Assembly: GCF_006345805.1 (NCBI RefSeq)
Contig: NC_042997.1
Location: 170,128,001-170,192,000, forward strand
Reading direction: 5' to 3'
Source: Octopus sinensis
Lineage: Eukaryota
DNA length: 64,000 bases
Shown here: in pieces, positions 38,001 to 63,106 of the stretch
Layout of the letters: each line of letters starts with the position of its first letter
How positions within the stretch are numbered: the stretch's first letter is position 1
The notes under the pieces: model-generated
The model's input: only the letters and a program-made list of their open reading frames with translations
Databases searched by the model: none
What the model was told of the DNA's origin: nothing
Translations under genes and position numbers: made by a program

Positions 38001-38512
38001 CTCTTACAGATTGAAGTTGAATCTGTACGGGCTTTGTGGGTGGAAATTTTTAATAATAGGATATTAGTAACTTGAAAACCAGAAATTTCAAATTCAAGCA
38101 ATAATTTCACCACGTGAAGAAATTGTGCTCCGTATACTTTACAGATTAATCTAAGGCAATATTCCAGGTGCACGAAAACACCAGTTTTCTTTTAGTGAGA
38201 GAAATAAATTCGATAAAAGGAAATATAAGCAATATACAATACAGTGAAGTAGATATATTCATTAAAAAAATGTACAATTTTGTTTGAAAATAAATTTATG
38301 GTAGACATGATTGCTGGGACACAAATGTAAGGCGGTAATATTTTAAGTAATACTCAGTAATAAATAAACAATTGATTGTTACCATAATATTGAATCTTGC
38401 ACAAAATGGATATCAAATAGTAAATACGACGTTTTTCTTGAAGATGAATTCACTAAATTATTAAGATTATAAAGGATAAAAGCAGAGATATATCGAATCA
38501 CCAACTTACCAT
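35051..38512 (-). CDS. RPS18: 40S ribosomal protein S18 (uS13), complete, 152 aa
   Basis: Minus-strand exons 38510-38512 (ATG only, then GTAAGT), 36854-36952, 36634-36720, 35682-35875, 35051-35126 total 459 nt. Translation [22 protein letters not shown]...[12 protein letters not shown]...[21 protein letters not shown]. Minus-strand AATAAA at 35013-35018. Confidence 0.98.
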
Positions 38513-38561
38513 GGTTGCAGTTTACCGGAAAAGGAAGTTTGATTGTTCACGTGACTTAAAG
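38513..38561. promoter_or_regulatory. Bidirectional core promoter and 5' UTRs of RPS18/VPS52
   Basis: 49 bp between divergent ATGs. Minus-strand TOP/TCT-like tract CTTCCTTTTCC at 38527-38537, ETS-like CCGGAA and GGAAGT, palindromic E-box TCACGTGA at 38547-38554, YY1-like AAGATGG over the VPS52 ATG. Confidence 0.8.
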
Positions 38562-41500: not shown

Positions 41501-44500
41501 TATTATATATAAAATCAAATAAGTGATATTTAAAACTCATGCTACTCTTTTCTGTTTTACTTTTAGTATAATTTGTATTTTTAGTTTTGATGAATTTTTA
41601 TTCAAATATTTCAATATTTGTTACTTTCTAGTTCATATACAACAAAATCTGGAAGATGATATTGTGAAAGAAGCTTTGAAAACAGTGAGTAAATATTTTC
41701 TGAAATTAATTTAAGAACCCTTCCATACAGGCATCTTAGTATTCACTCCTTTGTTTCAGTTATTAATTGTGCATATGTGAAATTTTTTCTCCTTAAGCAG
41801 TATTTTATTTTTATTTTATAGGGTGTTGATCTCAGACAATATTCCAAGCAAATAGAGAAAGAATTATTAGAGGTTGAAAATGCTTCTATACAGGGATGTA
41901 TCCTTTTCATGATATTGTATGTTTTATTTACATGATTTTCATTCTAAACTGTTTTGTCAATGTTTAAACATAATAATGATGTTTGCTTGGTATAATGATT
42001 TGGATATGTTGGCTGTATATTTTTTGTTACATTTTTACTTCCATTTAGATTAGGCAGTTTGGAAAAAAATTAAACATTTGCTTTAATGGATAAAATAAAT
42101 TTTTTGGTTCTACATCTGTTGTATTACCAGACATTTCAGAATGGTACCTGTTGTTACTGAGGTAAACCAAAGCAAGAAGTTATACATGTTCTGGTTAAGT
42201 GCCCAATACAATGATTGTAGTAAAATTTGATTTCAAGAGCATAGGATTTGTATCTTATCAAAATGTAAACTGTTCCTCTGTCATGAATTGCACTGAAACC
42301 TAAATCCCAACTCTTTGAGAAGCTGATACATTTATGGTTAGATTTCTTTCTGTTGCCAACTATGGAATGAAAGAAAGAAAGAGGCTGATATTATGGTAAT
42401 TGGGACACAACTTAGTCACTCTATTGACTTAACTAACTATAACTATCTTGAAAAGAGAAAGAAGTGTCTATGTATAGTTAGGTTGACACTGAGATGAAAA
42501 TCAACATTTATATTTGCTTGTGCATTTCAGCAATCTGCCTGTTTCAAAATGCATAAAGCATAAAGTTTTATACTATTTGAAGTATGTAAAATATACTTAT
42601 CAGACACTGTTTTATGGTGTAAGTTCTATAATATTTATTATTTTTTGAAATGAAAATAAATATCATGAATTTTATTCTTCATTTAATATTATTGAAGGTA
42701 TTTATTATTTTCTGAGAACTTTAGAGTCTTGAATCTGCCAAATGGCAAGTTGAGGTATTTATAATTCTCTAAAGAAATTAGTGAAGTTTGATGGATTAAA
42801 ATAGTTCTAACGATAAATCAAAACCATGTTGCAGAACCAATTTTTTTGTGACATTTGCCCTTAACTGCATTTAAAGATATCAAAGAGAGCCAAAATATTG
42901 CCAGTCTTCACAAACAGATAGCAGCATGTGATACCATCCTAGAGGTAATTTCTATAATTTCCACACATATTATTGATGTTTATTTCTTCACTCTTTTTAT
43001 TTCTTGTACTTTTGCCCACACTGTGTAGTTTTGTGGGGTAATGATAAATTTAGCTGTGGGTGAATGGTACTTCTTTATTCCAACTGATATACTATTCTTC
43101 AGTATTCGACAACACATGACATCACACTATAAATGCAACTAGTAGATGTTACTTATAGGGCCTGCATTGAGCAAACACATCGTCAGACAATCAAAACAAA
43201 AATAAAATCTGATTGTCTGATGATATGTTTACTCTGTTGGCCCTATAAGTTGCATCAACTAATGGCTTATCTATAGTGTGAGATCTTGTTTTACTAAAAC
43301 ATGTAAAAATTGGCATAAAGAAGTGTCACATTCTATCCATGCTCTTTTCTCTTATTTTATATACAACAGGGTGTATAAATGTGCTTTTCACACAGTTATA
43401 AGAGTTTGAACTCTTATTTCTAGCAATAATTCTGCTTCTAGCACCCACAGTCACAATTAGTGATGACTAAATTTTTCCTATATGGCTTTATATAGTGGTT
43501 AGCTGCTGACATTAATTTTTAGTATACACATCGACATTTTGCCAAATCAGCCATAAATTTATATGGTAAATATATATGTTGACAGAGGAATTTAGCTGTT
43601 CCATCAAAGCAATGGAGTCCTAATTACTGGATGAAACTATAGTCCTCTGATGTATCTTTGCTCATGGGACAGTTATCTATCCTATCAGTGTATATAAATC
43701 TGCTTTTCGTGCAGCTATAAGAGTTTTAACTCTTATTTCTAGCAATAACTGTACTTTTAGCACCCACAGTTACAATTAGTGTTGACTGAATTTTTCCTTT
43801 ATGGCTTTGTATTGTGGCTAGCTACTTACATTAATTTATATATATATATATATATATATATATCATCATCATCATTTAATGTCCGTTCTCCATGCTAGCA
43901 TGGGTTGGACGGTTCGACCGAGGATCTGGGAAGCCAGAAGGCTGCACCAGGCTCCGGTCTTATCTGGCAATGTTTCTACAGCTGGATGCCCTTCCTAACG
44001 CCAACCACTATATATATATAGGCTTGGTGATCAATTATTCCGGCACCAGAGAGAAATAGAAAAGTTCCTGGTGGTAGATGGGTTTTTTGATGTCTGTTTT
44101 CCATATCTGAAAGACTGTTTGATTATTTATATTTACAACACAGAAAAGAGAGAAGACAAAACAGAGAAAAATAATTTCACTGATTTATGAATCTTAAACT
44201 ATTTCAATTGCAGAGGATGGAACAAATGTTAAATGGTTTCCAGGCTGATTTAAGTAGTATCAGTAATGAAATTCAAACATTACAAGAACAGTCGATTGCC
44301 ATGAACATCAAACTCAAGAATAGACAGGTTAGTACCAATATTAGATTTCAATTTCCTTTTATTCATTTATAGTTATCAATAAGAACCACAGCAATCTGAA
44401 TTCCTTGGGTGCTGATTGGTGAGTCAAAGTTTTGGCAGTTTTGCCCTGTCACCAGTGCAGTTTTGTCCTTCTACCAAACATGTAATGCTGAATGACTCAA

Positions 44501-47500
44501 TAACTTATTTGTAAATAGATGTGATGTGTGGCTGCAGTCTGTCACAAGAAGCTGTGCAACACTGGAAACAAGTGTTTCGTTAATTTGAAGTATTAAGTAA
44601 ACATTGTCCAATCAATGAAATGTGCAGTAGATTTGTGTGTTTCTTTCTAAGTGGGGGATGTCTCTCAGACATTTGCTGCTGTATAAGCTGGGGTAAGATT
44701 CTACATATCTTACCTGCCATGAGGAGACACATTACAGAAGTAGGAAACATACATTTCCTATTTTGACTTTAGTGAAACCTGAAGTTAGTAAATTTATTAA
44801 AGAATTATTCAAGTATAATGAGTTATATATAATGAGTGTTGGATGTTATAAAGTAAAATATTTACACTTGGTTTGCAGCCTCATTTTCCATTATAAATCT
44901 GAGGCCTTGTATATGTATAATCATTTGATAATGCAATGTTGTAAGGTAGTTTTACTCATATTCATATATTTAGCATCATGATCTTCATTTTACATATGCT
45001 TTTCTATAATGGTATGGGTTGGATGGGTTATTAGGGTTCAGGTAAGTTATTTTTATCATTGCTTGTTAAGTTTCATATTTGGTATGGTTTCTACTGCTGG
45101 ATGGCCTTCTTATTACCAACTACTTTACTGAGTGAACTGGGTGCATTTTATTATGGCACCAACACTAGAAAGGTGTCTTACCCAAGCAAAAGTAAAGAAT
45201 CCTTTCTCTTTACATTGTCTCCATTCATTCATTCATTCATTCATTCCTTTCTTTTCCACACAACTTGGTGTGTAGAAAGGGGAATTTTTTACTAAATCAT
45301 TGGTACTGTTGTGCATTACTATCTCTAATCACATAGGTAGCATGCTGTAAGAAAGGAGTTATAGAAGTGATAGGGTGGGAGTATGATAGAGAAAATGATG
45401 GAGAGAGTAATGAAGAAAGGTCATAGTGAAACGAGAGAGAGAGAAAAACATAAGAGGAAGAGGAAGTGATAGGAACCTTTCTGATTTTCTGTATGTAAAT
45501 TTTTCATGCTACCTCAAACAATAATCCATTAAACATAACTTCATTGTTTCAGGCTGTGCGGGGAGAACTGAGTCAGTTTGTTGACGAAATGGTAATTCCT
45601 GAGAGTATGGTGTCGTAAGTAACTTACATATAATACATACGTTTTATCCAAAGGTCAGTGTTTCAATCAAGAGTTCATGAACTAATCAATCTTCATCACT
45701 GTCATAGAATCTCTTGCAAGTAATCAATTCTTATAAGCTGACAGGAGCGTTAGCCATTTTTGTACATCAAAGAAGAAAAACTGATGTGAAAATAATTAAA
45801 CTTCTTTAAGGTTCAAATATATTGGGATCTCATAATTTCCTCTTTTAGTGTTGACATACCAAAATGTTAAGGTATCCTTTGTCTAACATGGAACACACTA
45901 TTGTGTATACATAACTGAATTAGGAACCAAGGCCTGGATACAAGAATTCAGTGTAATACTCATCAACATTATCATAATTTTCTATCTGCTTTTTCATGCT
46001 GGCATGAATTGCATGAGTCACATTGCATTTTACCACTCATTGCAGTCCTTGATACACACAAAAGGTCCCTTTTGGATATTTTTATCTATAATTATTGTTT
46101 TCTTAGATAGGTTACAGAATCCCCACCTTCTCTTTTTGTTCCTTTTCATTTTTTTTGGCTTGGTTTTTACTGCAGGGTGTCCTTCCTATCGTCTGAACTG
46201 GGTGCAGTTTATTCTACCAACAGCATTTGAAAAATTACCCATAGCAAGACTAAAGTGTCTTCTCTTCTCTGCATTAATCTTTTTGTTATTGTTGTTCTCT
46301 GAGAGGGATTGCATCCACTATGTCTTGCAGAGTCCACAATATCTCTATTTAGTTATTCCTTTCAAGAGATAATTTGGGACACAGGGCTAAAGCTGAATGT
46401 TGTATTGGCTTCCTGGAATATTTTCACTGGCTCATAAAATGATTTGAACTGCAAGTTTACAAAACATTTATTTTTTATACAATCCTTGTCATAGTATCAA
46501 TTAAGCACCAGATACACTGACATTTTATTGATTGTTAAATATATTATATTTTATAGTTTATGAATAAGAGTTCTTAATCTGAAGTTTGACAATTAAAGCA
46601 AAGATAATGTTACTGTGTAACTTTGGCCTTGATTGTCTTCCATAACATGTTTATTATAAATATATTCCTCCATAGGCACAAGCCACACAAGCTGGGAGAG
46701 GAGTACATTTGACTGTATCAACTACAAACTTAGACTAGTTCATATATGTTTCCAGCATGCTGTCCTTAGAATATAAATGTATATAATTATGGTGCTATAT
46801 TAATTCTGTCAGCCATGACTTTCAGTTTTGTATAGAAATAAATGAAAGTATATAGGGAAAATTCAATGAAATACTGTTTTATGAGAAATAGTAAATATAT
46901 AGAAGTGCCAGTGGCACATAAAAAGCTCCTCTCAAGTGTTGGGCTTCACAAAGGCAATAACCAAGACCTATGACATTATCTTGTGCTTGAGAAGAAGACC
47001 CATCAAGCCAAGTAAAATCACAGTCATAGCAGTTACCAGTGTCACACAAATGGCACCCATGCCGGTGCTACGTAAAAGCACCCACTACACTCTTGAAGTG
47101 GTTGGCGTTAGGAAGGGCACCCAGCCCTAGAAACCATGCTAAATCAGACTGGAGTCTGGTGCAGCCTTCCAGGTTGCCAGCCCTGGTCAAACTGTCTAAC
47201 CTATGCCAGCATGGACAATGGAAGCTAAATGATGATGATGATGATGATAGAAGTATGATTGGAATCCAGTGTAAATTATAGACACCCAAGAGGTTGGATC
47301 ACAGGTAGGCTGGCAGAGAAGGTGGAGTTCATATGTGATCTTAGAGGATAGTAACTCCAAATAAATAACTGACTCTGATCATGACAACTAGCACGGAAAA
47401 GAGACATAAAATAATGATGCTGATAAGAAATATAAAGGGTTCTTTTTTATTTGCTGGCATCTGCTGATGATTCACTTTAATTTATTTTTGTATTTTAGAT

Positions 47501-48521
47501 GTTGTAGGAAGGTGGTTTCTGTAGCTTTGCTTCTGAGTTTATTCACTTTCACTATTCTTACAGTGTCTGTGTTTTTTTTTTTTAACCTTTCAGCATAATT
47601 GAAATCTGAATGTAATTTTTCTGTGAACAGACATATCGTGGATACCCCAGTGACTGAGCGAGAATTTATGGAACAACTGAATGAATTGAATCATAAAATA
47701 AATTTTGTCAAGGAACAGTCGTTTAAAGAGGCTCGCTCTTGCCAGGATGTCCGTGATATTCTTGAAAAACTCAAGACTAAGGTATATTACTAAACTAATC
47801 AAAAGCATCTGACATAATTATTCATTTACATGTTGTGAATCATTGTTATCGTTTTAAAACTTGCAAGTTTCTATTTTATTAACTATAACATATCTCTTAC
47901 GTTGATACATTGAAGAAGGATATAGTTGATTGAATCAACGCTAAGAGTTGCTGAAGCATGGAACAAACTGCCGGCACCAGTTGTTAGTTGTCGGAGCACT
48001 GTATCCTTCAAAACTTCCATGCTTCCTGAGATTCACCAACACTACACCTGATTTTCTCCCCTCCATACACACGCAAGCATGTATCTGACTCATACACTGT
48101 TCACTTTCATTGTTCACTTGTACATTACTGCGTATGCTTTATACGCACTTTTGACAAGTTGTGGTGCACCTGAGCACTGTATACAATTTCATTATTATTA
48201 GCAGGTGTTTATTTATTGGGTATCAGAACAAGAAAAGGCAAATTGTGTGATATCATTTGAACTCCAAATACTATAAGACAGTATTAAATATTATATTAAT
48301 GGCATTCCCCTGTGTCTGTCTCTGAATCACCTATTTTTAACTGTGACAAAAATAATAACCATTTTTATATTTCTACAAGGTTATTGGACTATAACTATGT
48401 TGGGGGTAATGTTTTCGAGGTACTCAATTTATCAGGTTGTTTACCGGAGTTATGTCCCTTCCAGAAAATTATTCCTCCGTCACTTCGAATTTAAATGCAA
48501 CAATTATGCAGTCTCTCTCTC

Positions 48522-48568
<47 letters not shown>

Positions 48569-50520
48569 GAGGCTTCGTACAATTTCTGTCAACCAGCTCC
48601 ATATATACACAAAAGTAATCAACCTACCCGATTATCATATAAGACACTTGTCCAAGATGTCATGCGTTAGGTTCGAACCCAGTACTACGTGATTACGAAG
48701 CAAATTTCGTAAGTCATCTAAAGTTCTTTTATATTTTTAGGCTTTAAGCAAAATACGGGAATACCTTCTTCAGAAGATTTACTCATTTAGGAAACCGATG
48801 ACCAATTACCAAGTACCTCAAAACACTATGCTTAAATTCAGGTCGGTTGCTACCTTTCTGTTGCATTTTTTTTCTTTATTTTTGGAAGTGTATTTTGTAA
48901 GGAATTTGATATTGAGATAAATGTGGAGAATGGCAACGTCATTTGCAAAAAGTGTAGAATGTATAAAAACATCAATAAAATAATGTTTGCAATTTTTTTT
49001 TAGTCCAAGGTATACTTAGGTAACTTACAAGTATTTAATTAGAAAAAAAAACATTATAAAAAAATCCAATTAATTTTCATATATCATGATGTATGATTCA
49101 GTCGTACCTTTGTAAGTATTAAGCCAAAAAAAAAAAAAAAAAAAAGATAATTTGAAAACTTAGAAGTATCTAATTAGAAATGACATAAAAATATTGTAAG
49201 AGTAGAAATCTCAAAACGATGCTATTAGTAAATGATAATTTACTTTCGTTTTGGGATTTCAAAGAAAACATTTCTTTTTTTTTTTTGCATTCCCCATTTA
49301 TTGGAAATTGCGCTACAATTCCCCACACTTGCTGACATTTATAATGTAGAAGCCCTGTGTTTTGTGGTTATGAAGTATATGTTAACCCTCAATTCAGCGC
49401 TGATTGTATAGACCTATGATCAAAAAGCGTTCCAGTAATAAGCATTTCGTATTTTAGTTTGAAGATGTTAAGGGTGTGCTTGGAAAGATATTTTACTGCT
49501 ATTTCTAGCAGGTGCAATTACTACTCAAAAAATTATCTTGACCTGCGTACTGATTAGTAATTACGGAGTTGTGTCCCTTAATTATTTCTTTTTAGTGATA
49601 TTTAGCGCCCATACGCTTTAGCATAGCAAGGGAAGTCACTATGTTAAATCACAATCCACGTTTATAACGAGGATTGAAGATGAAGTAGTGTTGTTATTTA
49701 CACTCTATAAGTATGTGAGACAATGTTGTGTATGTATTAGTGTGTGTGTGTATATATTTATTTTATCTAGTTTCAGCTCACGAGCTGTGGCCATGCTGGG
49801 GCACCGCCATTTCAAACAATATATATATATAACTTATAAATAAGGGCAAACGAAAAAAATTTCTAATGCCAAATATGCCGAAATTAGACACCCTGTCCAT
49901 AACCATATAATTTTTCACAATACGCACGCTATTCAAAAAAAGGTCGACAGAAATCTCTAAAAAAATTTCATTATTACCACATTGGACAAGTATCTCATTT
50001 ATTTCTTTGCCATATTTATCACTGATGAAGGGAGGGTTCTTACGAACTAACCCTGAAATCGGTCCGATGTGGTCATAATGGAATTCTTTAGAGATTTCTG
50101 TCGACCTTTTTTTGAGTAGCATGTGTATTGTGAAAAATTATATGGTTATGGACAGGGTGTCTAATTTCGGCATATTTGGCATTAGAAATTTTTTCGTTTG
50201 CCCTTATTTATAAGTTGTTTATGAATTTAACCTTTAAAGGTATTTTTTAATATGCTGGCCATTGATGAAATTTTTTTTTCGAAAAAATTTTATCCTACAT
50301 TAAATATATATATATATATTTGTTGAAATGGAAAGATGAATTTTCTTGTTACGGATTATTCAAAAGTTTAACCGATACCTGGGTAGCAAAAATCACCTGC
50401 AATATGGTATCCTTATTAATCAGAATTTGGAAAATTGTGGCCTTTGAAACATGTATAGAATGTAATAAAAGGAATTCTGTACAATCTTCGTTCAACTCCA
50501 TTTCTTCATTCACTAATATA

Positions 50521-50558
<38 letters not shown>

Positions 50559-51045
50559 CACCTAAATGTAGCTAACCCTTAAGGGTCGATGCTACTGTAG
50601 CTTGTAGCCCCAGGAAGACATCTCCTCCAGCTAGCTATTGACACACTATCTGTGCCCTGGTGGCAAATATACTTCACGATGACAGAGATTTATCATTGCT
50701 TGTTTGCACTTTTTCAAGATCAGTGACTTTTCGTCACTGGAAAAAGTATATATATTTGCATTGAGAACCACTTCTCATGGCCAACCAGTGGTTGTCACAC
50801 ACTGATGACAGATTAGTATCCAGAAACTCGGGTTCGTGTGTATCACGTCAGGCTGGAGATGGTAACGATGACTTCCCTTTGCAAATACTGATAGGGCACA
50901 GATAGTGTGTCAATAGCTAGGGAGGAGATATCTTCCTGGGGCTACAAGCTATAGGAGCATCGACTCTTAAGGGTTAGCCACATTTAGGTGGCAAATATAC
51001 TTCATGATGTCGTGCAGCTACTGTTTATAACTTGCTCAGAGATTT

Positions 51046-51090
<45 letters not shown>

Positions 51091-54000
51091 AGTAAATCAT
51101 AAATCCAAAATAGAAACACACTCTAAGTTATAGAGCAGTAGAGTATACAGATAAAGATAGATATGGGCAGTCTATGGGGTTACCCTGGGTTTCACATCCA
51201 TAATAGCTGGTCTCTAGTGTACTCTGGGTTTCACGTCCCTAATGCGTATAGCTTTACAGCATTTATTCAGACTCTAAAGCCCATTGGTCTATGGCTTTTC
51301 TAGCCATAGGCTAGAGGGTTTTAGGGTTTGAAGAAATGCTGTAAAGCTAAATACTTTATGGACGTGAAATCCATGGTAACCCCATAGACTGGCCATTTCT
51401 ATCTTTATCCATGCATGCATGCATGTTAATATTGACTTCAAGTTAATTTTGTTATCTTCATTAGAAAGCAAGTAAGGTGAAACTTCGAAGTTACTGTCAA
51501 TTTATTTTTCCTTGTAAAATCCAAATAAATATGATGTATTCTTTAAATATCTTGAGTGATCCTTTCATTAATGTTTTACAGTTATATATAATCTCATTTG
51601 GCAAATACTCTACTGAAAATTTACTTCAGTTGAACATTATAGGTATGTCTGTTTGTCTTGCTAGGTTCTTCAATGAATTCCTCATGAGCCATGAAAGACA
51701 AGTAGCCAAAGAGATTCGTGATGAATATGTGGACACTATGAGCAAAGTTTATTATTCTTATTTTAAAGGATACACAAGTCGACTCATGAAACTTCAGGTA
51801 TTCTTTTATGGTTTATTATTTACATATTTATCTAGCAAGATTTTCCAAAAATAATTATTTTAAATGAAGGGAACTATGGATTCAGCTAATTATTAAAAGT
51901 TTTAGCTGATGAATATGAAAAAAAGAGAGGGCTCCATGAAGACTGCAAATGTTCTCACCATCCCTACCCCTCCCTACCCCTAGTCTCGACCTATGTAAGG
52001 TAATGTTCATACAGTGCAAAATATGAAAGGCTAGCGTTATGCAGGTTGTACTGAAGGCTACTTTACTACTTCATTTCTTGCACATGAATTCTGCCAAATG
52101 CGAGCTTTCTTTTCAGGTACACGAAGCTACTGTCCACCGTCCCAGGGTCTCTAGAGCCCATGCCTCCCACACCTCAACGTTGGCACTCTGAAAGGTAGGT
52201 CTGGTGAGATAGTCGAGATGCTTGAACGGAGATGTGTGGATATATGTTGCATGCAAGAAATAAGGTGGAGAGGAGATCAGCTAGGTTCCTCACAGGCAAG
52301 GAACGCAGGTACAAGATTTTCTGGGCAGGGAACACTGACGGGGTTGGTGGCGTGGGTATACTTATCGCTGAGAAATGGGTAGATAAAGTAATTGAGGTAA
52401 TCAGAGTATGTGACAGAATACTTAAGATTAGATTAGTGCTTCATCATAGTTTAGCAACCATTATATCAGCCTATGCTCCTCAGTCGGGGCTACCCGATGG
52501 ACAGAAAGACCGATTCTATGACACTCTACTGCAGACTACCTCGTTGACGAACGACAGAGACCTTATCTTTGTGGCTGGTGACTTCAATGGTCACGTTGGA
52601 CGACATGCTGGGGGCTTCCATGGCGTACATGGAGGCTATGGCTATGGCTCCCGCAACGAGGAGGGAACCAGGCTGCTGGAGTTCTGCGATGCAAATAATC
52701 TTATGATTTGCAACACTAACTTCAGGAAACCTACCAGCCACCTAGTCACTTACCAATCGGGCCAACATACCAGCCAAATTGACTACATCCTTACAAGGCA
52801 AAGGGAGAGATGGCTGCTTATAAATGCCAAAACCTTCCAGGTGAAGAATGTACCCCACAACATAGACTGGTAGTTAGTGACTTTAGGATCAGGACTAGGA
52901 GGACAACCAGAAGACGACAAATATGGAGAAGAAGGATCTGGAAGCTTAAAGATCCTGCAAATGGACAGAGATTTAGGGACATATTACTTGAAGCCTCTGA
53001 CGAAGTAGAAGGGGATAGAGCATCACAGGGGGTAGAAGACAGCTGGACGTTTCTAAGGGACAACCTGCTGAGAGCCACTGACCAGATCTGTGGCTGGTGC
53101 AAAGTCCCCTCTCGACCTAGAATAACGTGGTGGTGGAACAATATTGTAGACAGGGCTATTAGAGAAAGAGACAGGCTTGGAAGGTCTGGAAAAATGGGGG
53201 TAGCAGGGGATTGTATCAGACTGCCAAAAGAGAAGCTAGGAGACAGGTTTATTTAGCCAGAGGGGAAGCAGATAAGAAAAAATTTGCCAATGTTCTGCGC
53301 CGTGAGGACCAAAGACTGGAGGTGTTTCGTGTTGCAAGACAGTGTGTGAGAGAGAATCGTGATGTGGTGTAGGAGAGAAGTGTGTTCGCATGGAAGATGG
53401 TTCACTTGCGCTAAATGAGGATGCAAAGAGAGAGGTTTGGAGATGCCACTATGAAAGGTTGCTGAATGAAGAAAATGAATGGGATAAAGAGAGTCTGCCG
53501 AATGTTGACCCAACAGAGGGACCAGCTATCCGAGTTGATAGTTCCGTGGTAGCTAAGGCAATTAGAAGCATGAAGACAGGGAAGCCCCAGGCCCATCAGG
53601 AATCACTGCAGAGATGCTCAAAATGTCTGGTAGTGTCGGCTATAGCCTAGTCACCCGTATAGTTAATCAGGTGATACACAAAGGGGTCATACCCAATGAC
53701 TGGTGTAGCAGTATAATAGTCAACTGCTACAAAGGTAAAGGTGATGCCCTAGATACAAATAACTACAGAGGTATCAAGCTGTTGGACCAGGTGATGAAGG
53801 TTACGGAGAGGGTCATAGCCCAACTAATTAGAGAGAGAGTTAGTTTAGATGAGATGCAGTTTGGGTTTGTGCCAGGGAAAAGTACTACTGATGCTATATT
53901 CCTGGTAAGGCAGCTGCAGGAGAAATACCTAGCCAAAGATAAGCCCCTGTACCTGGCTTTTGTTGACATGGAGAAAGCCTTCGACAGGTCCCCCGATCCC

Positions 54001-57000
54001 TTATCTGGTGGGCAATGAGGAAACTAGGGATAGATGAATGGTTAGTGAGAGCTGTGCGGGCCATGTACAGGGACGCCGCTAGTAGGGTGAGGGTTGGAAA
54101 TGTACAGTGAAGAATTCCGGGTAGAGGTAGGAGTCCACCAAGGCTCAGTACTCAGCCCCCTCCTATTTATCATAGTCCTCCAGGCAATAACGGAGGAATT
54201 CAAGACAGGATGCCCTTGGGAGCTCCTCTATGCTGATGACCTTGCTCTAATTGCTGAGTCGCTATCAGAACTGGAGGAGAAGTTTCAGGTGTGGAAACAA
54301 GGATTAGAATCGAAGGGCCTCAGAGTCAATCTAGCTAAAACCAAAGTCGTAATCAGTAGGAAGGTAGACAAATCACAAACACCTTCAGGTAGATGGCCCT
54401 GCTCGATCTGTAGAAAAGGTGTAGGTAGAAACTCTATAAGATGCACCAAGTGTAAGCTATGGACACATAAGAGATGCAGCAATGTCAAAGGAAGGCTAAC
54501 TAGGAAGATGGTTTTTGTATGTGGCAGATGCTCAGGAACAATAAACACTGAAAATGCTCTGAGACCAACTTCCGTCACTTTCCAGGGAGAAAAACTAGAA
54601 ATAGTTGATAGTTTCCGTTACCTAGGTGACCAAGTCAGCAGCGGGGGCGGGTGTGCTGAAAGTGTAACTGCTAGAGTAAGAATAGCTTGGGCAAAGTTCA
54701 GAGAGCTCTTACCTCTGCTGGTGACAAAAGGCCTCTCGCACAGAGTGAAAGGCAGACTGTATGATGCGTGTGTACGAACAGCCATGCTACATGGCAGTGA
54801 AACATGGGCCGTGACTGCCGAGGATATGCGTAAGCTTGCTAGAAATGAAGCCAGTATGCTCCGATGGATGTGTAATGCCGGTACTCACACTCGGCAGAGT
54901 GTAAGTACCTTGAGAGAAAAGCTGGACCTAAGAAGCATCAGTTGTGGTGTGCAAGAGAGACGTTTGCGCTGGTATGGTCATGTGGCGAGAATGGATGAAG
55001 ATAGTTGTGTGAAAAAGTGCCACACCCTAGCGGTTGAGGGAACCTGTGGAAGAGGCAGACCCAGGAAAACCTGGGACGAGGTGGTGAAGCACGACCTTCG
55101 AACTTTAGGTCTCACTGAGGAAATGACTAGAGACCGAGACCTCTGGAAGTGTGCTGTGCGCGAGAAGACCCGGCAGGACAAGTGAGTCCATAACCCGTGG
55201 CCTTCTACATGGGATGGAGCCAGCCTACGTATGCATACCTTCCCTTCTTGGGACACAAAACTCTACTTGTGAAGATGTGATGAGGCAAGTGAGGATCAGA
55301 ATCGAAATCGATCAATGGAAATTGCGGATGTGCTACCAGTGCCGGTGGCATGTCAAAACTCTGCTTGTGAAGACCCGTTGAGGCAAGTGAGGATCAGAAT
55401 CGAAATCGATCAATGAAATCGATCAATGGAAATTGCAGATGTGTTACCAGTGCCGGTGGCATGTAAGAGAACTTTCCGTTTCGCGACCGTTGCCAGCACC
55501 GCCCCGTTTCGTGTCCGTTGCCAGCCTCGCCTGGCCCTCGTGCCGGTGGCACATAAAAAGCACCATCCGTTCGTGGCCGTTTGCCAGCTCTGTCTGGCAC
55601 CAGTGCGGGTGGCACGTAAAAAGCACCCACTACACTCACGGAGTGGTTGGCGTTAGGAAGGGCATCCAGCCATAGAAACACTGCCAGATTTGACTGGGCC
55701 TGATGAAGCCTTCTGGCTTCACAGACCCCAGTAGAAACGTCCAACCCATGCTAGCATGGAAAACGGACGCTAAACGATGATGATGATGATGATGATGATG
55801 TCATCATTATCATCATCATCATCGTTTAACATCCGCTTTCCATGCTAGCATGGGTTGGACAATTTGACTGAGGTCTGGCAAACCAGATGGCTGCACCAGG
55901 CCCCAATCTGATCTGGCAGGGTTTCCACAGCTGGATGCCCTTCCTAATGCCAACCACTCCGAGAGTGTAGTGGATGCTTTTATATACCACCGGCACGAGG
56001 GCCAGTCAGGCGATACTGGCAACGGCCATGCTCAAATGGTGCTTTTTATGAGCCACCTGCACAGGAGCCAGTCCAGCGGCACTGGCAACGACCACACTTG
56101 AATGTTTTTTCATGTGCCACCAGTACAAGTGCCAGTGTATAAAGTAATTATATTTTGTACTAGAAGTTAATTTCCATTTTTTTCATATCACTTATTTCTC
56201 TGATAACTTTTAGAAGAATCAACTAGTAGATACAGTAAAGCAGACTACAGCTGCAGAGAGTAAAACCAAGACTTCAACATTATTCTCCATCACTTTATCA
56301 AAATTGACTTTTTAAAGGTGCCTAATCTTTAAAGATCATTATCTTCTGGCCTCAGTGTTTTAATAAACATTTAACTCTTCAGCATTTAAACTGGCCAAAT
56401 ATGTAATATTTGTAGCTTCAAGATTTTAATGATGTCATTGTTTATTTTTAGAATGACACTGTAGGGTTACCCTACAGTGTCATTTTAAAAGTAAACAATC
56501 ATATCATTGAAATAATGATGAGACAAGATAATACATGATAAATTTTTTAAAAAGTGTTTAAATAAGTATTATATTTGATAAATTAATTTGAATGCGAAAG
56601 GGTTAAATAACAAAGACTATAGATGATTATTGCATGTAATGACACTATTTGTAATGTGTGATGTAACAGGCAGTTTGTAGTGAACATCACTTAGCTTTTC
56701 TTATCTAGTTTACCCTCTCTGCTAATCCACAAGTCATATGATATTTTCAAGGGGAGGACTTCATTAGTGATCTCACTTGTAGAAGATGGGGAGGAAAAAA
56801 CATGGTTTAGACTATTTTTAGAATTCCATTTTAGAAGGTATTTTGTGACCATATGACAGGTTAATATTTCTAACTGAATGTGTTGCTTACATTTCTTTTA
56901 CAGTATGAAGAGCTTGCAGACAAAGATGACTTGATGGGAATTGAAGATACAGCAAAGAAAGATATCCTTAAATTTCAATATTTCTAAATTTTATATTCCT

Positions 57001-60000
57001 ACATTCATTCACCAGGGTATTTGTCACTCCAGCTGGAGGGATCTCTCCCTTGATTCTTGTTAACACCATCATCATCATTTAGCATCTGCCTTCCATGCTG
57101 GCATGGGGTAAATGGTTTGATTGGAACTGGCAAGTTGAAGAGCTACATCAAGTTCCAGTCTAATTTGGCATAGTTTCTACAGCTGGATGCCCTTCCTATC
57201 GCCATCCACTCCAAGAGTGTAATGGGTGCTTTTTATGTGTCACCAGCATGGGTGCCAGTCATGTGACACCGGCATCAGCCACGACTATGATTTCACTTGG
57301 TTTGACGAGTCTTCTCAAGCACAGCATATCACCAAAGGTCTCAATCACTTGTCATTGCCTCTCTGAGGCCCAACATTTCAAACATCATGCTTCACCACCT
57401 CGTCCCATGTCTTCCTGGGCCTACCTCTTCCACAGGTTCTCTCCACAGTTAGAGATTGGCACTTCTTCACACAGCTGTCCTCATCTATACCCATCACATA
57501 GCCATACCAGTGCAGTTGCCTCTCTTACACACCCCATCTGATGCCTCTTATGTCCAACTTTTCTCTCAAGATGCTCACTCTGTCATACATGCACACTGAC
57601 TTTGCACATCCAGTGAAGCATACTAGCTTCATTTTTTTCAAGTCAACGCATATCCTCAGCAGTTACAGCCCATGTTTCACTGCTGTGTTGCATAACTGTT
57701 CACACACAAGCATCATACAAATCTGCCTTTCACTTTGAGGGAGAGGTCTTTAGTTACCAACAGAGGTAGGAGCTCTCTGAATTTTCCCAGCCTGTTCTTA
57801 TGCTAGCAACTACACTCTCAGAACGTCCCCCTCTGCTACTGACTTGGTCACCTAGATAATGGAAGCTATCAACTATTTATTAATGCTGGCATTTGTTTCA
57901 AGTATTTTCTATACTCACTACTTTAAGGTTTTGTTGGTGAGCTGGGTTTTTTTGTCTTTTAGGTACCTAGGTGAAATTTAATTTAGAATGTAAAGAATCA
58001 GAGTAAATATTACAGGGCTTCTGATCCAACATTTTTGCAATTTGTCTGTCCACCACTCTTGAATAGTAATTTTTTTATCAACCTTAAAAGGATAGAAGGT
58101 AAAGTTGACCTCAGCAAGATTTGCAGAGTAAGGATAAATATCACTAAGTGTTCTGTCCAACACTCTAACAACATTGCCAATTCACTGCCTTTTATGTTTT
58201 ATATTAATTAATGTAATTAGTTTAAGATGTACCATATTCGAAAGTAAGTCATTTCACATTGTCATGTCACTGAAATATATTCAAAAATGACTCCTTAACG
58301 TTCACAAGGTTTTTCTCTTCAAAGCCTTCTTTAAAGAACAGATCCACGGTGTTCACTGTAGGAGATAGAGGGGAAGTACTAACTACTCAGCTTGAAGCTC
58401 CTGTTATTGTTCCACATGCTGCTCAGAAAAATGAAACCCGGGTATGTACCAGCTATAATTAATGTCTCCTTTCTTTGAATAGTTCTTGTTGACTATGGAT
58501 ATCCTACGAAGATAACTGATTGAATGCTTAAAACTCTTGAGATATCTTGTGACAACTGAAAATGTTTTGGTTGCTTGTCAGATGAGTTGTAGTGCATCTG
58601 AGCACTGTATACAGTAAGTTCATTCATTCATCAGGGTATTTGTCACTCCTGGAGGGATCCCTCTCTTGATTCTGGTTGACACTTTCTATTAGGGTTTAAA
58701 GGGTTAAATGTAATGTGGTTCCATTATAAAGACAATGAGATTTACCTGCTACTGGTCAAACAATTGCATAAAAGTTCTTTCTGTTTATACTCTGTGTCAG
58801 AATTGGTAATTTATTTCCATTACACAGAGTTATGATTGTAGTCAAAGAGCTGAGGAACAGATTATTTGCTTTATTGAAGCTACTTCAATTTAGATCCTAT
58901 ATATTACCTCTAACCCTTATACTTCAAATAAATAACATCATGGAGTTAATTCAGTTTAATTCACTCTTCACTTCTAAAAACTTTGATTTGTATTTTCATC
59001 ATCATTAAGTATCCTTTTTTTTATTCTGTCATGGGTTGGGTGGTTCAATGTGAACTGATGAGCCAGAAAGCTGCACCAAGCTCCAACGTCTGCTCTGGCA
59101 TAGTTTCTACTGCTGGATGTCCTTCATAGCAAGAACCACTTCACAGAGTGTACTGGGTGCTTTTTTTGTGGCACCTGCATTGGAGAAGCTTCCACATACC
59201 CACAAGACTTCACCAAGTACTGGTGAAGTTACCAAGACTCCTCAACTGAGTGGGGTATAGTATTGAGAGATATAAAAGTATGATACAAGGACAAGAGCTG
59301 GTGCCTTACTGAAGGGATGAATATATGATTTTCCTATCTGGAAAGAGAGGGAGAGAGAGATGTGAGGTCAAAGTACAGGGTGAATATGAGAAAGAGAGAA
59401 AAGGATAGAAGAATAGGAAAGGTGTACCTTCATTATTATTTGTTTTACAGTGTTTGTGTTTCTTGTCAAGAGAAATATATTTTATAACATTTCTATTTTT
59501 CTTTCCATCTTCTTTAGTATACATTTGAAAAACTGTTTCGCAGTCAGCACTACACGTTGATGGATAATTGTTGTCGAGAATATTTGTTTGTTGTGGACTT
59601 CTTCATGGTATCGGTTGGAAGTACAGCAGCTCAGGAACTTTTCAACAGCATCATGGGGAAAACACTATCAATGTTTTTGGTATGTAGCTAGTTTTCTCTT
59701 GCTTGATTTAATTTCTACACATTCAACATTTTCTTTATCTACATTTATGTTATATATGTACTAGTTACTTCACAAGCCAGCGAAGGTGCCTCTGTCTATT
59801 GCAATGAGTGAAGTGAAATTATTATCTGCCCATCTATGAAAAAGGACATTGATACATTGGATAATATAGTCCTAGATAGATTATGTCTAACAAAGACAAT
59901 CATCATTGCTGGAACAGTTTTGATCATTGGGTAACGTTATCAGGTGTAGCTTAGAGCTAAACAATAATATTGTTTAGGTATTTAGTTTTTATATGTCCAT

Positions 60001-60376
60001 TTTCTACATGTGATACAATTTCTATGGAAATAATTGACTTTAAATACTGCAGTCTGTCTGCCAAGAAAGATTTAAGACTTTCCAAATAAAATAATTCTAT
60101 CGAAATATAGAAAGAACTGAAATGGTATGATATGTCTAAATGATGTGCTTGAGAAAAGAATTGCGCAAATCAGAAAAATATCTAGCTCCAAATTCAGCCT
60201 CTTATAACTGCCACTTCCGTCATTATTTTCACACCTGATTTTCCATGCTTGCAAGAGTTGGGTAGGTGCTCCCAAGTATAGTGTCATATCATTTGGGACA
60301 TTCCTATGTCACCTCCTTTGCCCCTACATGGCCTTGCTTTTTGAGCCAAAAAATTAACTAACTAACAATACACGCA

Positions 60377-60434
<58 letters not shown>

Positions 60435-63024
60435 TCCTGCAGCCCAATGTCACTGTCATCACTCTCTCTTTCCTGTCCTTCTCTGAGTATATAGGGAAGC
60501 TACCCTGTTGCTCCCCTATATACTTGTGTATTACCACTCACTACATTTCCCTTTCCCTCCCTCTCCCCCTTTGCATTCATGTGAACTCCCTGCTTGTACC
60601 CACTATCCAATTCTCTACCACTCCATTTACATTCACCTCCTTGTACCTTAGGAGTACACCCTAGATCATAACCACTATCTCTCTCTCTCACTGGGGTAGC
60701 CATGCTTCTCCTCTACAGCAAGACATCTGTTTCTGTCCCTCTATCATAGTTTAATCTCTCATCACTTGACACAAAGCCACCCCTCTCAGTTGAGGGATCA
60801 TGGTCTTGGAAGTTACTCAGTCACCTTGCTAGTGCTGGTGCCACATCAAAAAGCACCTAGTAGAAACCATGTCAAAGCAGACAGTAAAACTTGGTACAGT
60901 CCTCTGGCTTGCCAGCTCCTGTCAAACTGTCCAACCCATGCTAGTGTGGAAGATGGATGTTAAATGATGATGATGATATATATACCAATGAATTAGCAAC
61001 AAGTTCATCAAAAACAAATTCTCAATTTTATATTGCTTGATACCCACTAGATCCTGTGAAAACCACCAATCTTTGAATAGGTTTCATAAGATTTGGATTT
61101 TGGGATCTGGGCATAAAGATGAGAAATATGGGATAAATAAGTCATGATTAGAATTTTTGTTAGGGTGTGTAAAGAAGGAAAGAACCCTCATTAAAATTCT
61201 TAATCTGCAATTTTGATGAAATTCGAATCATAGCTATTCCAGTTTATTAGAGAAAATATAAAAGAAAAGTTTAGTTTTTCAATTCCATGTGACGGACAAA
61301 GCTGGGTATCTCTGCCAGTATTTAATATATCCTTCCTTTTTCTGAATCGGTAAAGTTTGATATGAGGGAGATTTAGTTGCCATTTCTGTGAGATTGAGTA
61401 TGTAGAGAATTCATCCTACTTCCAATAAAAACAACAAAAATTGAAAAGTACTGTCTTATGTTTTAAATTTTTTAATTGATTATTTTTTGTTAATTGTAAT
61501 TTTGAATTTATTTATTTTCTCTTTCCAGAAACATATGGAAGTTTACACAAATGATTGCTTTGATTCTATTGCCATCTTTCTCTGCATCCATATCATTAAT
61601 CGCTATCGTACCATCATGCTTAAACGCAATGTACCTGCTCTGGAGAGGTTGGTTTCATTTTTACTTTATTTGTTGTCACATTACACATTCAACAAGTTGT
61701 CTTAATTTTGTAGCCTTCAACAGCACAAAAACACAATCATGAAATCAGTTCCTCATCTTGCAGTCAACAGCAAGCAATATGCAATTAATAATCTCAAAGT
61801 CATTACAAATGCTAGGACTTGCAATCTCTAATGAGCTTTTTATGGCAGCCTAATATAACATTTGTGGAAGCGCATGGCTTAGTGGTTAGGGTGTCAGCAC
61901 CATGATCGTAAGATTGTGGTTTCGATTCCTGGACCAGACGACGCATTGTGTTCATGAGCAAAACACTTCATTTCATGTTGCTCCAGTCCACTCAGCTGGC
62001 AAAAAATGAGTAACGCTGCGATGGACTGGCGTCCTATCCAGCTGGGGAACATATACACCATAGAAACTGGGAAACCGGGCTCATGAACCTGGCTAGGCTT
62101 TAAAAAGGGTGCATTTAGTTATTTTTAATGTAACATTTAAAACGGCATTTCAAAAACTGGTTTTCCAATGCAAGGCCAGGAAATTCTTCATCTCCACTTG
62201 GTTTCTGGCCCTTCACAAAGCTCGAGTAAAACTCACAGTGGACTAGTGCTTTTATATCTGAGATGGTACTGCTGTTACATATATATATCCTAACCTGCAT
62301 CCAAAAAGTAGCTAGGAATTCTAATTATATCATGGTCTTCATATACCAGAAGTTTATTTCTTTCTTTTCAGCTCTTGGCAATAGAGTTTTTTATTTTATT
62401 GAACCAATTTACCCATGCAAGTATGACTAATTGGATATAAAGCTAGAAATATAGTGCTAATATATATTTTATCACATTCTTCTGGGTTAGTAAATAACTA
62501 CCTGTAATGTACTGGGGAAAGTGTGGTAAAATTGATCTTGGTAGAGTTTGAACTTGGTATAACAAGGTACTGAATTATTAACAGTAAAAATCTAGTCTAA
62601 TATTACTCTAAATTCTACCTTTCTTCAATAATTATGCCCCAGGATCTCCACTCTTAGTTATTATTAATGAATTGTTCAGTGTTATATGATGTCTGACAAC
62701 AAGAGGTATAACATATTGCTGGAATTAAAAACCAGATAAATAGAGAAGCTTGTCAAAGTAGATTTCCACAACTCAATATTAAATGAAAATGTTTTGTGTT
62801 TAACTACTTCACACCTTGTATAATATTTCATCAACAACTATATCAAAGACATTCTATATCATCATCATAATCATGGTCTTTGTCATCATTCTTATTGAAG
62901 GTACTGGCAAACACTTCAGGACATAATGTGGCCAAGATTCCAATATATACTTGAACTAAATATTCATAGTGTTAAAGAATGTGATCCCCAGAAACTTGGA
63001 CAAATTGATATCCGGCCCCATTAT
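38562..63024 (+). CDS. VPS52: Vacuolar protein sorting 52 (GARP/EARP subunit), first 15 exons; continues beyond the window
   Basis: Exons 38562-38597, 40813-40894, 41632-41684, 41822-41897, 42877-42944, 44214-44327, 45553-45614, 47631-47781, 48741-48841, 51665-51797, 56904-56961, 58308-58441, 59518-59679, 61529-61647, 62901-63024. Peptides GVDLRQYSKQIE, FQADLSSISNEIQTLQEQS, QKIYSFRKPMTNYQ, KDDLMGIEDTAKK, LFRSQHY, DIRPHY. Exon 1 is less certain than the rest. Confidence 0.96.
41898..42876 (+). other. U12-type GT-AG intron of VPS52
   Basis: Donor GTATCCTTTT; branch CCCTTAAC 11 nt before the intron end; no polypyrimidine tract; removal restores the frame (IQG-Y-IKES). Confidence 0.9.
43371..43837 (+). 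repeat. Diverged direct repeat of about 148 bp (43371-43518 and 43689-43837)
   Basis: Shared ATAAGAGTTT.AACTCTTATTTCTAGCAATAA..TAGCACCCACAGT.ACAATTAGTG.TGACT. Confidence 0.85.
47935..48200 (+). mobile_element. CR1/L2-like LINE 3' end
   Basis: RVAEAWNKLPAPVV..SFK C-terminal motif, 3' stem GTGGTGCACCTGAGCAC and (ATT)n tail; a related tail lies at about 58585-58625. Confidence 0.65.
49831..50216. repeat. Long inverted repeat (arms 49831-49987 and 50062-50216), probable Penelope-like pseudo-LTR relic
   Basis: Highly similar arms of about 155 bp; hammerhead core in the spacer; (TA)n flanks. Confidence 0.88.
50017..50069 (+). ncRNA. Minimal type-I hammerhead ribozyme motif (Penelope-type), slightly degenerate
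   Basis: uauca-CUGAUGA-AGGG..GUUC uuac GAAC..CCCU-GAAA-ucg-GUC-cgaug. Confidence 0.65.
50558..51050. repeat. Inverted repeat (50558-50658 and 50893-50991) plus short direct terminal repeat, Penelope-like
   Basis: Arms of about 100 bp; GGTGGCAAATATACTTCA.GATG repeated directly at 50659 and 50987; hammerhead core inside; embedded in (TA)n. Confidence 0.85.
50796..50840 (+). ncRNA. Minimal type-I hammerhead ribozyme motif, degenerate
   Basis: cacaca-CUGAUGA-cagau uagu aucca-GAAA-cucgg-GUU-cgugug. Confidence 0.55.
52084..55800 (+). mobile_element. Near full-length RTE-clade LINE in VPS52 intron 10, frameshifted as assembled
   Basis: AP endonuclease (NVGTL, CMQE, SAYAP, GDFNGHVG, SQIDYI), RT (NYRGIKLL, QFGF, FVDMEKAFD, GVHQGSVLSPLLF, YADD), C-terminal RLRWYGHV and RGRPRKTW, then a 3' UTR ending in (GAT)n. 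The 5' UTR may extend a little upstream. Confidence 0.95.
55801..56137 (-). mobile_element. RTE 3'-tail element, tail-to-tail with the LINE
   Basis: (CAT)n followed by the reverse complement of the ...CCAACCCATGCTAGCATGGAAAGCGGA.GTTAAACG tail. Confidence 0.85.
56962..58307 (+). other. U12-type intron of VPS52 with AT start and non-canonical 3' end (AT-AA as assembled)
   Basis: Donor ATATCCTT after ...AKKG; perfect branch TCCTTAAC at 58292-58299; the frame of GFFSSKPSL fits an exon start at 58308. Confidence 0.82.
57066..57875 (-). mobile_element. Degenerate RTE 3' portion
   Basis: Reverse complement resembles 54600-55100 (YLGDQVS, RPRKTWDEVVKHD) followed by the (GAT)n tail. Confidence 0.75.
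60385..60433. repeat. (CA)n microsatellite
   Basis: Directly visible; a compound (CT)n(CA)n also lies at about 48512-48569. Confidence 0.95.
61868..62115 (+). mobile_element. tRNA-derived SINE, family B
   Basis: Near-identical to 8986-9198. Confidence 0.8.
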
Positions 63025-63106
63025 GTAAGTTTTCATCTTCATTTTTGAAATTGTTTCTTTTATAATCAACTTGAAAGATAAATCATACTACCCTAACTGC
63101 GATATA

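What the first reader, a model, noticed from the sequence alone, without database searches (positions are those of the whole stretch)
56962..58307. Minor intron with apparent AT-AA termini
Seen: ATATCCTT donor and perfect TCCTTAAC branch followed by GTTCAC-AA-GGTTTTTC. The AC (58305) and the AG (58308) both give frameshifts; of the A-N dinucleotides only AA (58307) yields KKGFFSSKPSL. Known: AT-initiated U12 introns tolerate non-AC ends, but these are very rare. Three candidate acceptors within 4 nt could also send part of the mRNA to NMD. Caveat: one T missing from the T5 run would make it AT-AG, which is also non-canonical.
Basis: partly seen in the sequence, partly recalled or inferred. Interest (0 to 1): 0.75.

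Follow-up and report, generated by a model that had tools for sequence, protein, structure and literature searches.

The report
Real AT-AA minor intron, octopus VPS52
An intron in the octopus vesicle-trafficking gene VPS52 is cut out at unusual AT...AA ends, likely by the rare "minor" splicing machinery; this is a known, uncommon intron type, and the last letter of this same ancient intron differs among animals.

Summary
Confirmed, but a known kind. Intron 11 of VPS52 (56962-58307, 1346 nt, phase 1) has AT...AA ends. Transcript-like contigs of 3 of 3 RNA-type runs, from three studies, join 56961 to 58308 with no mismatch or slide. Genomic-type contigs of 5 of 5 runs under five organism labels keep the AA and the T5 run, so the T6/AG artefact is refuted. 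Human VPS52 has this intron as U12 AT-AC, retained more in ZRSR2 mutants, and the genome encodes U11, U12 and U6atac. AT-AA is the commonest non-canonical minor end in animals (823 introns, 1.1%), and the RefSeq protein already has the right junction. Of 25 metagenomic orthologues, 22 end in AC and 3 in AA (two bivalve-like, one coral-like). This scan earlier noted the same intron as AT-AA in Trichoplax (unchecked). The AA is likely chosen by branch distance plus a pyrimidine at -3 (inferred). Leak to the AC or AG acceptors and NMD is neither shown nor excluded.

The parts
38511..63024 (+). VPS52 gene (GARP/EARP tethering subunit), coding exons 1-15; the rest of the protein is not encoded in the part modelled
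   Evidence: Pfam Vps52_CC hits; tblastn of P0001; exon model equals P0001 residues 1-508
56904..56961 (+). Exon 11 (58 nt), ends in phase 1 after K-K
   Evidence: covered by transcript-like contigs
56962..58307 (+). Intron 11, 1346 nt, AT-AA ends, U12-type signals
   Evidence: joint 56961->58308, ends AT..AA, both=0, in X9, X13 and X19
56962..56969 (+). U12-type 5' splice site ATATCCTT
   Evidence: unchanged in DNA run X1; human orthologue starts ATATCCT after the same 10 exon bases
57060..57878 (-). Decayed interspersed repeat inside the intron; the broken minus-strand frames look like a LINE (RTE-like label recalled, not tested)
   Evidence: pile-up of repeat contigs; self-BLAST and translation
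58292..58299 (+). U12-type branch site TCCTTAAC; branch A likely 58298 (inferred from consensus, not mapped)
   Evidence: complementary to UAAGGA of the genome's U12; run X16 has TTCCTTAAT here
58304..58305 (+). AC not seen in use: 6 nt after the branch motif, out of frame
58306..58307 (+). 3' splice site AA (C at -3, 8 nt after the branch motif)
58307..58308 (+). Overlapping AG not seen in use: A at -3, out of frame
58308..58441 (+). Exon 12 (134 nt), starts with GG then the T5 run
41898..42876 (+). Intron 4: second minor-type intron of the gene, GT-AG (GTATCCTTT donor, CCCTTAAC branch)
   Evidence: human VPS52 has a U12 GT-AG intron at the matching place; junction not checked in RNA

Best explanation
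Intron 11 of octopus VPS52 is removed at genomic AT...AA ends, likely by the minor (U12) spliceosome, which likely picks the AA because it is the first A-N pair far enough from the branch site that also has a pyrimidine before it. Shown: the ends, the frame, the signals and the snRNA genes. Inferred: U11 then U6atac read the ATATCCTT donor; U12 reads TCCTTAAC and bulges A58298; the 3' end is set mainly by distance from the branch, and an A-started intron tolerates A in place of C as its last base. The AC (6 nt) would be too close, the AA (8 nt, CAA) fits, and the AG (9 nt, AAG) would lose for its purine at -3 and because AT-AG is disfavoured. The intron is old; its last base likely drifts among C, A and G with little effect.
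For: Junction AT..AA in 3 of 3 RNA-type runs of three studies, in contigs of 2147-2367 nt with 0 mismatches over both exons. AA and T5 unchanged in 5 of 5 genomic-type runs, including X16, which differs at 13 of 351 bases. Human orthologue listed as U12 AT-AC, retention 0.063 to 0.262 in ZRSR2-mutant samples, padj 6.3e-5. U12, U11 and U6atac genes over cut-off in the genome. 15 of 15 metagenomic orthologues with both ends on the contig start ATATC. Choice rule: 10 of 10 human AT-AA rows have a pyrimidine at -3 and 7-17 nt spacers; PIGB (8 nt) skips an AC at 5 nt, RASGRP4 skips one at 6 nt, and ABHD18 uses CAA before G (read by eye). All 3 AA orthologues are CAA|G at 9 nt. Reviews state that branch distance matters and AT-AG is disfavoured.
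Against: No octopus knock-down or lariat data, so U12 dependence and the branch A are inferred. The spacing (9 nt from A58298) is shorter than the stated 11-13 nt optimum, on which scale the AG at 10 nt fits better. The -3 rule is not general: 11 of 16 non-redundant AC orthologues have a purine at -3, and human XPO4 uses AAC although a TAA lies just before it. Duplex energies with U11 and U12 did not separate this intron from major introns of the gene. The runs are contigs and their RNA label is a guess by the tool. The human orthologue did not respond to CENATAC depletion (padj 0.92).
Confidence: 0.9

Rival explanations
1. Assembly error: the genome really has T6 (AT-AG), or AG or AC in place of AA.
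For: Homopolymer losses are common in long-read assemblies (own knowledge); an AG overlaps the site.
Against: Transcript-like contigs match exon 12 from 58308 with 0 mismatches and 0 gaps in 3 of 3 runs; 5 of 5 genomic-type runs span the site without change. X3 is near-identical and may be this DNA's source, but the other four differ elsewhere and agree here.
Confidence: 0.01
2. A58307 is edited A-to-I in the pre-mRNA, so the spliceosome sees an AG-like acceptor (as in ADAR2 self-editing; recalled, as is the heavy editing of cephalopods).
For: Same mRNA junction would result. No RNA contig covers 58235-58307, so the base was not seen in pre-mRNA.
Against: None of the 25 longest of 139 inverted repeats covers the acceptor. 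Local fold z = +1.0. Best duplex of the acceptor is -29.5 kcal/mol, against -24.4 to -28.1 for five other acceptors. AA also occurs in bivalve-like and coral-like loci, and AT-AA introns are known in human.
Confidence: 0.04
3. The three close acceptors form a regulated leak: a sizeable share of transcripts uses AC or AG, shifts frame and is destroyed by NMD, tuning VPS52 level.
For: Both would stop at 58332, 107 nt before the next junction. U12 3' site choice is described as error-prone. An AG one base downstream exists in all 3 AA orthologues; the CACAA end is shared with L022.
Against: No such joint is listed in the 3 RNA-type runs (weak: contigs drop rare forms, NMD would deplete them, 35 joints not shown). 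The overlapping AG follows automatically from the exon's first G. The upstream AC is absent in L007 and L030.
Confidence: 0.1
4. The intron is removed by the major (U2) spliceosome despite its look.
For: U2-type A-started introns exist, including two AT_AA rows in the human U2 A-type sheet.
Against: Full U12 donor and branch, no pyrimidine tract before the acceptor; human orthologue is ZRSR2-sensitive and listed as U12.
Confidence: 0.03

Closest known systems
Human VPS52 U12-type AT-AC intron (chr6:33267322-33267681, minus strand; PMC8280824 supplementary rows)
   Same: Same gene, same last 10 exon bases, same ATATCCT donor, same phase-1 Gly codon; the gene also shares a second U12 GT-AG intron.
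   Different: Ends in AC rather than AA; 360 nt against 1346 nt; 15 nt after the listed branch motif against 8.
Non-canonical U12-type AT-AA introns (human RASGRP4, MSH3, PIGB, ABHD18, PROX2; Sheth 2006 PMC1557818; Larue and Roy 2023 PMC10639083)
   Same: Same ends, donor and branch consensus, pyrimidine at -3, short spacer; PIGB has the same 8-nt spacer with a skipped upstream AC; AC/AA switching between species is documented (MSH3 human AA, mouse AC).
   Different: Nothing in kind. Here both a skipped AC and an overlapping AG flank the used AA, and orthologues across many animal groups suggest three states.
Trichoplax VPS52 AT-AA intron
   Same: Same gene, same ends, compared with the same human intron.
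   Different: 101 nt; public models missed it there, whereas the octopus RefSeq protein has the right junction.

Membership tests
U12-type (minor) spliceosomal intron | 5' splice site RTATCCTT at the real intron start | tested here: met
   ATATCCTT at 56962, joint starts there
U12-type (minor) spliceosomal intron | Branch consensus TCCTTRAC close to the 3' end, no pyrimidine tract | tested here: met
   TCCTTAAC 58292-58299, 8 nt before the end; shorter than the 11-13 nt optimum but within human examples
U12-type (minor) spliceosomal intron | Host genome encodes minor snRNAs | tested here: met
   U12 126.6 bits, U11 94.5 bits, U6atac 96.9 bits; U4atac not searched; expression not tested
U12-type (minor) spliceosomal intron | Orthologous position is a minor intron in other species | tested here: met
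   human, mouse gene listed with minor introns, 25 of 54 metagenomic loci
U12-type (minor) spliceosomal intron | Removal depends on U11/U12/U4atac/U6atac in this organism | not testable with these tools
   only indirect: human orthologue retained in ZRSR2 mutants
U12-type (minor) spliceosomal intron | Energetic pairing to U11/U12 stands out from major introns | tested here: inconclusive
   duplex energies overlap with those of major introns of the gene
Non-canonical AT-AA subtype | Spliced junction places AT and AA at the ends without slide | tested here: met
   3 of 3 RNA-type runs, ends AT..AA, both=0
Non-canonical AT-AA subtype | AA is genomic, not an assembly error | tested here: met
   5 of 5 genomic-type runs
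Editing-created (AA to AI) acceptor | Acceptor A lies in a long RNA duplex | tested here: not met
   (prediction only, over 51600-63100)
Editing-created (AA to AI) acceptor | G read at 58307 in pre-mRNA | not testable with these tools
   no RNA contig covers the intron's last 70 nt

The most novel reading that the evidence does not exclude
The AA end is not an octopus accident but an old state of this intron, inherited across molluscs (octopods, clam-like loci, pond snails) and perhaps ancestral in animals (coral-like loci, Trichoplax), with AC in annelid-like loci and vertebrates and AG in oysters and abalone as later changes. One intron would then display the whole AC / AA / AG series in living species: a natural test set for how the minor spliceosome picks its 3' end and for AA as a stepping stone between AT-AC and AT-AG.
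Probability: 0.35. Interest if true: 0.45.

Novelty: new member of a known kind. Interest (0 to 1): 0.3.

Why it matters
As a single case it matters little: AT-AA minor introns are catalogued by the hundreds and the RefSeq protein is already right. It is a clean, RNA-checked example in which the minor spliceosome passes over a canonical AC two bases upstream and an AG one base downstream, which makes a compact minigene test of 3' site choice. It also explains a recurring annotation error: several public VPS52 models of snails, a clam, ticks, a coral and one octopus model read into this intron (K/R then DIL or NIL). The most interesting lead is evolutionary: the last base appears to switch repeatedly at one ancient intron.

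Tried and rejected
T6/AG or AG-for-AA assembly error: rejected. Another donor: none listed; the joint cannot slide. A-to-I editing of the acceptor: no structural support. snRNA duplex energies: uninformative. No run was on record as RNA in the run search; three guessed RNA runs were laid and behave as spliced transcripts. 8 of the 24 listed runs were laid in all; the donor was covered in only one DNA run (X1). Minor use of AC or AG could not be measured from contigs. One search failed on a wrong frame and was not needed. Dietrich 2001, Dietrich 2005 and Levine and Durbin 2001 were not held and are cited only through reviews. Paper searches listed no paper on this intron in octopus or molluscs; intron databases could not be searched, and O. 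sinensis is among the genomes of Larue and Roy, so it may already sit in their tables. One supplementary file of PMC8280824 (file 13) was not searched, and bioRxiv supplements were closed. No squid or cuttlefish genomic DNA was found. No tree was built: a 44-residue exon is too short. My hand-set exon boundaries were wrong at one or two introns and were corrected; intron 11 was not affected.
Full report
Identity of the locus. The window lies in a 2.7-Gb genome and carries VPS52 on the + strand (Pfam Vps52_CC). The closest protein is the RefSeq Octopus sinensis VPS52, P0001. A 15-exon model read from the window reproduces its residues 1-508 with no difference. The finding is intron 11, 56962-58307, 1346 nt, phase 1, inside the Gly codon of KKGFF. 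Twelve of the other 13 introns modelled are ordinary-looking GT-AG; intron 4 (41898-42876) has a GTATCCTTT donor and a CCCTTAAC branch.

The observation. AC (58305) and AG (58308) shift the frame and stop at 58332, 107 nt before the next junction; AA (58307) keeps the frame; reading into the intron stops at 56985. The donor 8-mer alone is not rare in the window (3 seen, 2.1 expected). Its place at the protein-defined exon end (3.3e-5), together with a branch motif near the other end (4.7e-4), is not chance.

Direct test. The run search listed 24 runs, none on record as RNA; I laid 8. In X9, X13 and X19 (guessed RNA, three studies) single contigs of 2367, 2320 and 2147 nt join 56961 to 58308, ends AT..AA, with no slide, no mismatch and no gap over either exon. 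DNA run X1 covers the donor and 57847-58500, with differences only inside the intron. X3, X5, X6 and X16 (four further organism labels) each span 58170-58520 in one contig with 0, 4, 7 and 13 differences, none at 58300-58320, and no indel; in X16 the branch reads TTCCTTAAT. X3 may be the source of this DNA and is not independent. The T6/AG caveat is therefore refuted and the AA is shared by related animals. Contigs cannot measure rare acceptors, and 35 weaker joints were not displayed.

Why U12. The genome has U12, U11 and U6atac genes over the Rfam cut-offs, with the expected complementary words near their 5' ends, although duplex energies do not discriminate. In the supplements of PMC8280824 human VPS52 has two U12 introns: AT-AC after the same 10 exon bases as here, and GT-AG at the place of intron 4. 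The AT-AC intron is retained more in ZRSR2-mutant samples (0.063 to 0.262, padj 6.3e-5) but not after CENATAC depletion (padj 0.92). Mouse Vps52 is also listed as a minor-intron gene. Dependence on the minor spliceosome in octopus is inferred.

How the AA is likely chosen (inferred). A review states that branch-to-3' distance is important, optimum 11-13 nt, and that AT-AG is disfavoured; another paper states that the U12 3' site is read with low stringency. Here AC lies 6 nt after the branch motif, AA 8 nt and AG 9 nt. Read by eye, 10 of 10 human U12 AT-AA rows have C or T at -3 and spacers of 7-17 nt (four rows rest on predicted transcripts only). PIGB has an 8-nt spacer and skips an AC at 5 nt; RASGRP4 skips an AC at 6 nt; one ABHD18 row uses CAA with an AG one base on. 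The octopus AA has C at -3, the AG has A. Against this: the spacing is below the stated optimum, and AC-ended orthologues often have a purine at -3 (11 of 16 non-redundant loci, mostly one related group). I put the choice rule at about 0.6.

Orthologues. A metagenome scan gave 54 loci. In 25 an intron with U12-like signals ends at the same codon; the other 29 have no intron there, one at a shifted place, or were unreadable. Of the 25, 22 end in AC (15 with the ATATC donor on the contig; several are near-duplicates) and 3 end in CAA before G, 9 nt after the branch motif, with the donor off the contig: L007 and L022, nearest to the clams Mya, Mercenaria and Mactra, and L030, nearest to the coral Porites, whose close relatives L033 and L036 end in AC. 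Proteins called straight through the acceptor give a weaker, indirect reading of the last base, assuming the exon starts with G. The reading is right where it can be checked (Arg in P0150, matching AC in L029; Ser frame in the three AA loci). It gives A for P0004 (exon identical to Physella), P0136 (identical to Acropora), P0117 and P0147; G for oyster-like P0011, P0107 and P0108; and a Haliotis rubra isoform with one extra residue implies a tail ending in G. Many other short proteins have no intron here or end in G after pyrimidine-rich tails and were not used. Whether AA is inherited or recurrent cannot be decided from this sample.

Comparison with what is known. Sheth 2006 lists 8 AT-AA U12 introns in human, mouse and Arabidopsis and frequent switching, e.g. 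MSH3 AA in human and AC in mouse. Larue and Roy 2023 call AT-AA the commonest non-canonical end in animals and plants: 823 introns, 1.117%, against 21.8% AT-AC, 0.95% AT-AT and 0.89% AT-AG; O. sinensis is among their genomes. Searches listed no paper on this intron in molluscs.

Papers seen: PMC1557818 (passages, section 24, Tables 2-3), PMC10639083 (passages, supplement rows), PMC8280824 (passages, supplement rows), PMC6717393 (supplement rows), PMC7367187, PMC3584512, PMC1874599, PMC5378181 (passages). Recalled, from no call: ADAR2 AA-to-AI editing, heavy editing in cephalopods, the 50-55 nt NMD rule, the RTE label, the GARP/EARP role of VPS52.

Verdict. Real and well supported, a new member of a known uncommon class. 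Interest 0.3; the evolutionary switching at this one intron is the part worth following.

Noticed in passing
window 41898-42876 (+): Second minor-type intron of VPS52 (GT-AG, GTATCCTTT ... CCCTTAAC, 11 nt spacer), orthologous to the human U12 GT-AG intron.
   Followed up: partly
window 54599-55192 and 57286-57878: Two inverted copies of a roughly 590-bp repeat (78% alike) bracket the 58-nt exon 11 and the U12 donor; they could pair in the pre-mRNA and be edited or loop the exon out.
   Followed up: no
window 51798-56903 (intron 10): Donor GTATTCTTTT is one base from the U12 consensus and a TGCTTAC lies before the acceptor; not listed as U12 in human, probably a major intron but minor-like.
   Followed up: no
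window about 3411-3560 and 7246-7395: Two near-identical copies of a stretch with GTATCCTT followed about 25-30 nt later by CCTTAAC; too close to be one normal minor intron, outside the VPS52 model, probably a repeat.
   Followed up: no
proteins P0002, P0006, P0010, P0032, P0034, P0035, P0051, P0198, P0217, P0255: Public VPS52 models of snails, ticks, a clam, a coral and Octopus bimaculoides read into this intron (DIL or NIL after K/R), which shows the A-type donor is shared and that the intron is often mis-annotated.
   Followed up: partly
G000, many contigs: 43 U6atac matches over the cut-off against 3 for U12 and 5 for U11; most are probably dispersed pseudogene-like copies.
   Followed up: no
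window 55696-55903 and 56410-56526: Two tight hairpin-type inverted repeats (103 and 58 nt arms, 1-2 nt loops) in intron 10, MITE-like or foldback.
   Followed up: no
G000:C8701:245789-246399 (-): A second, divergent Vps52_CC match on a small contig with stops inside; may be a paralogue, pseudogene or another organism's gene.
   Followed up: no
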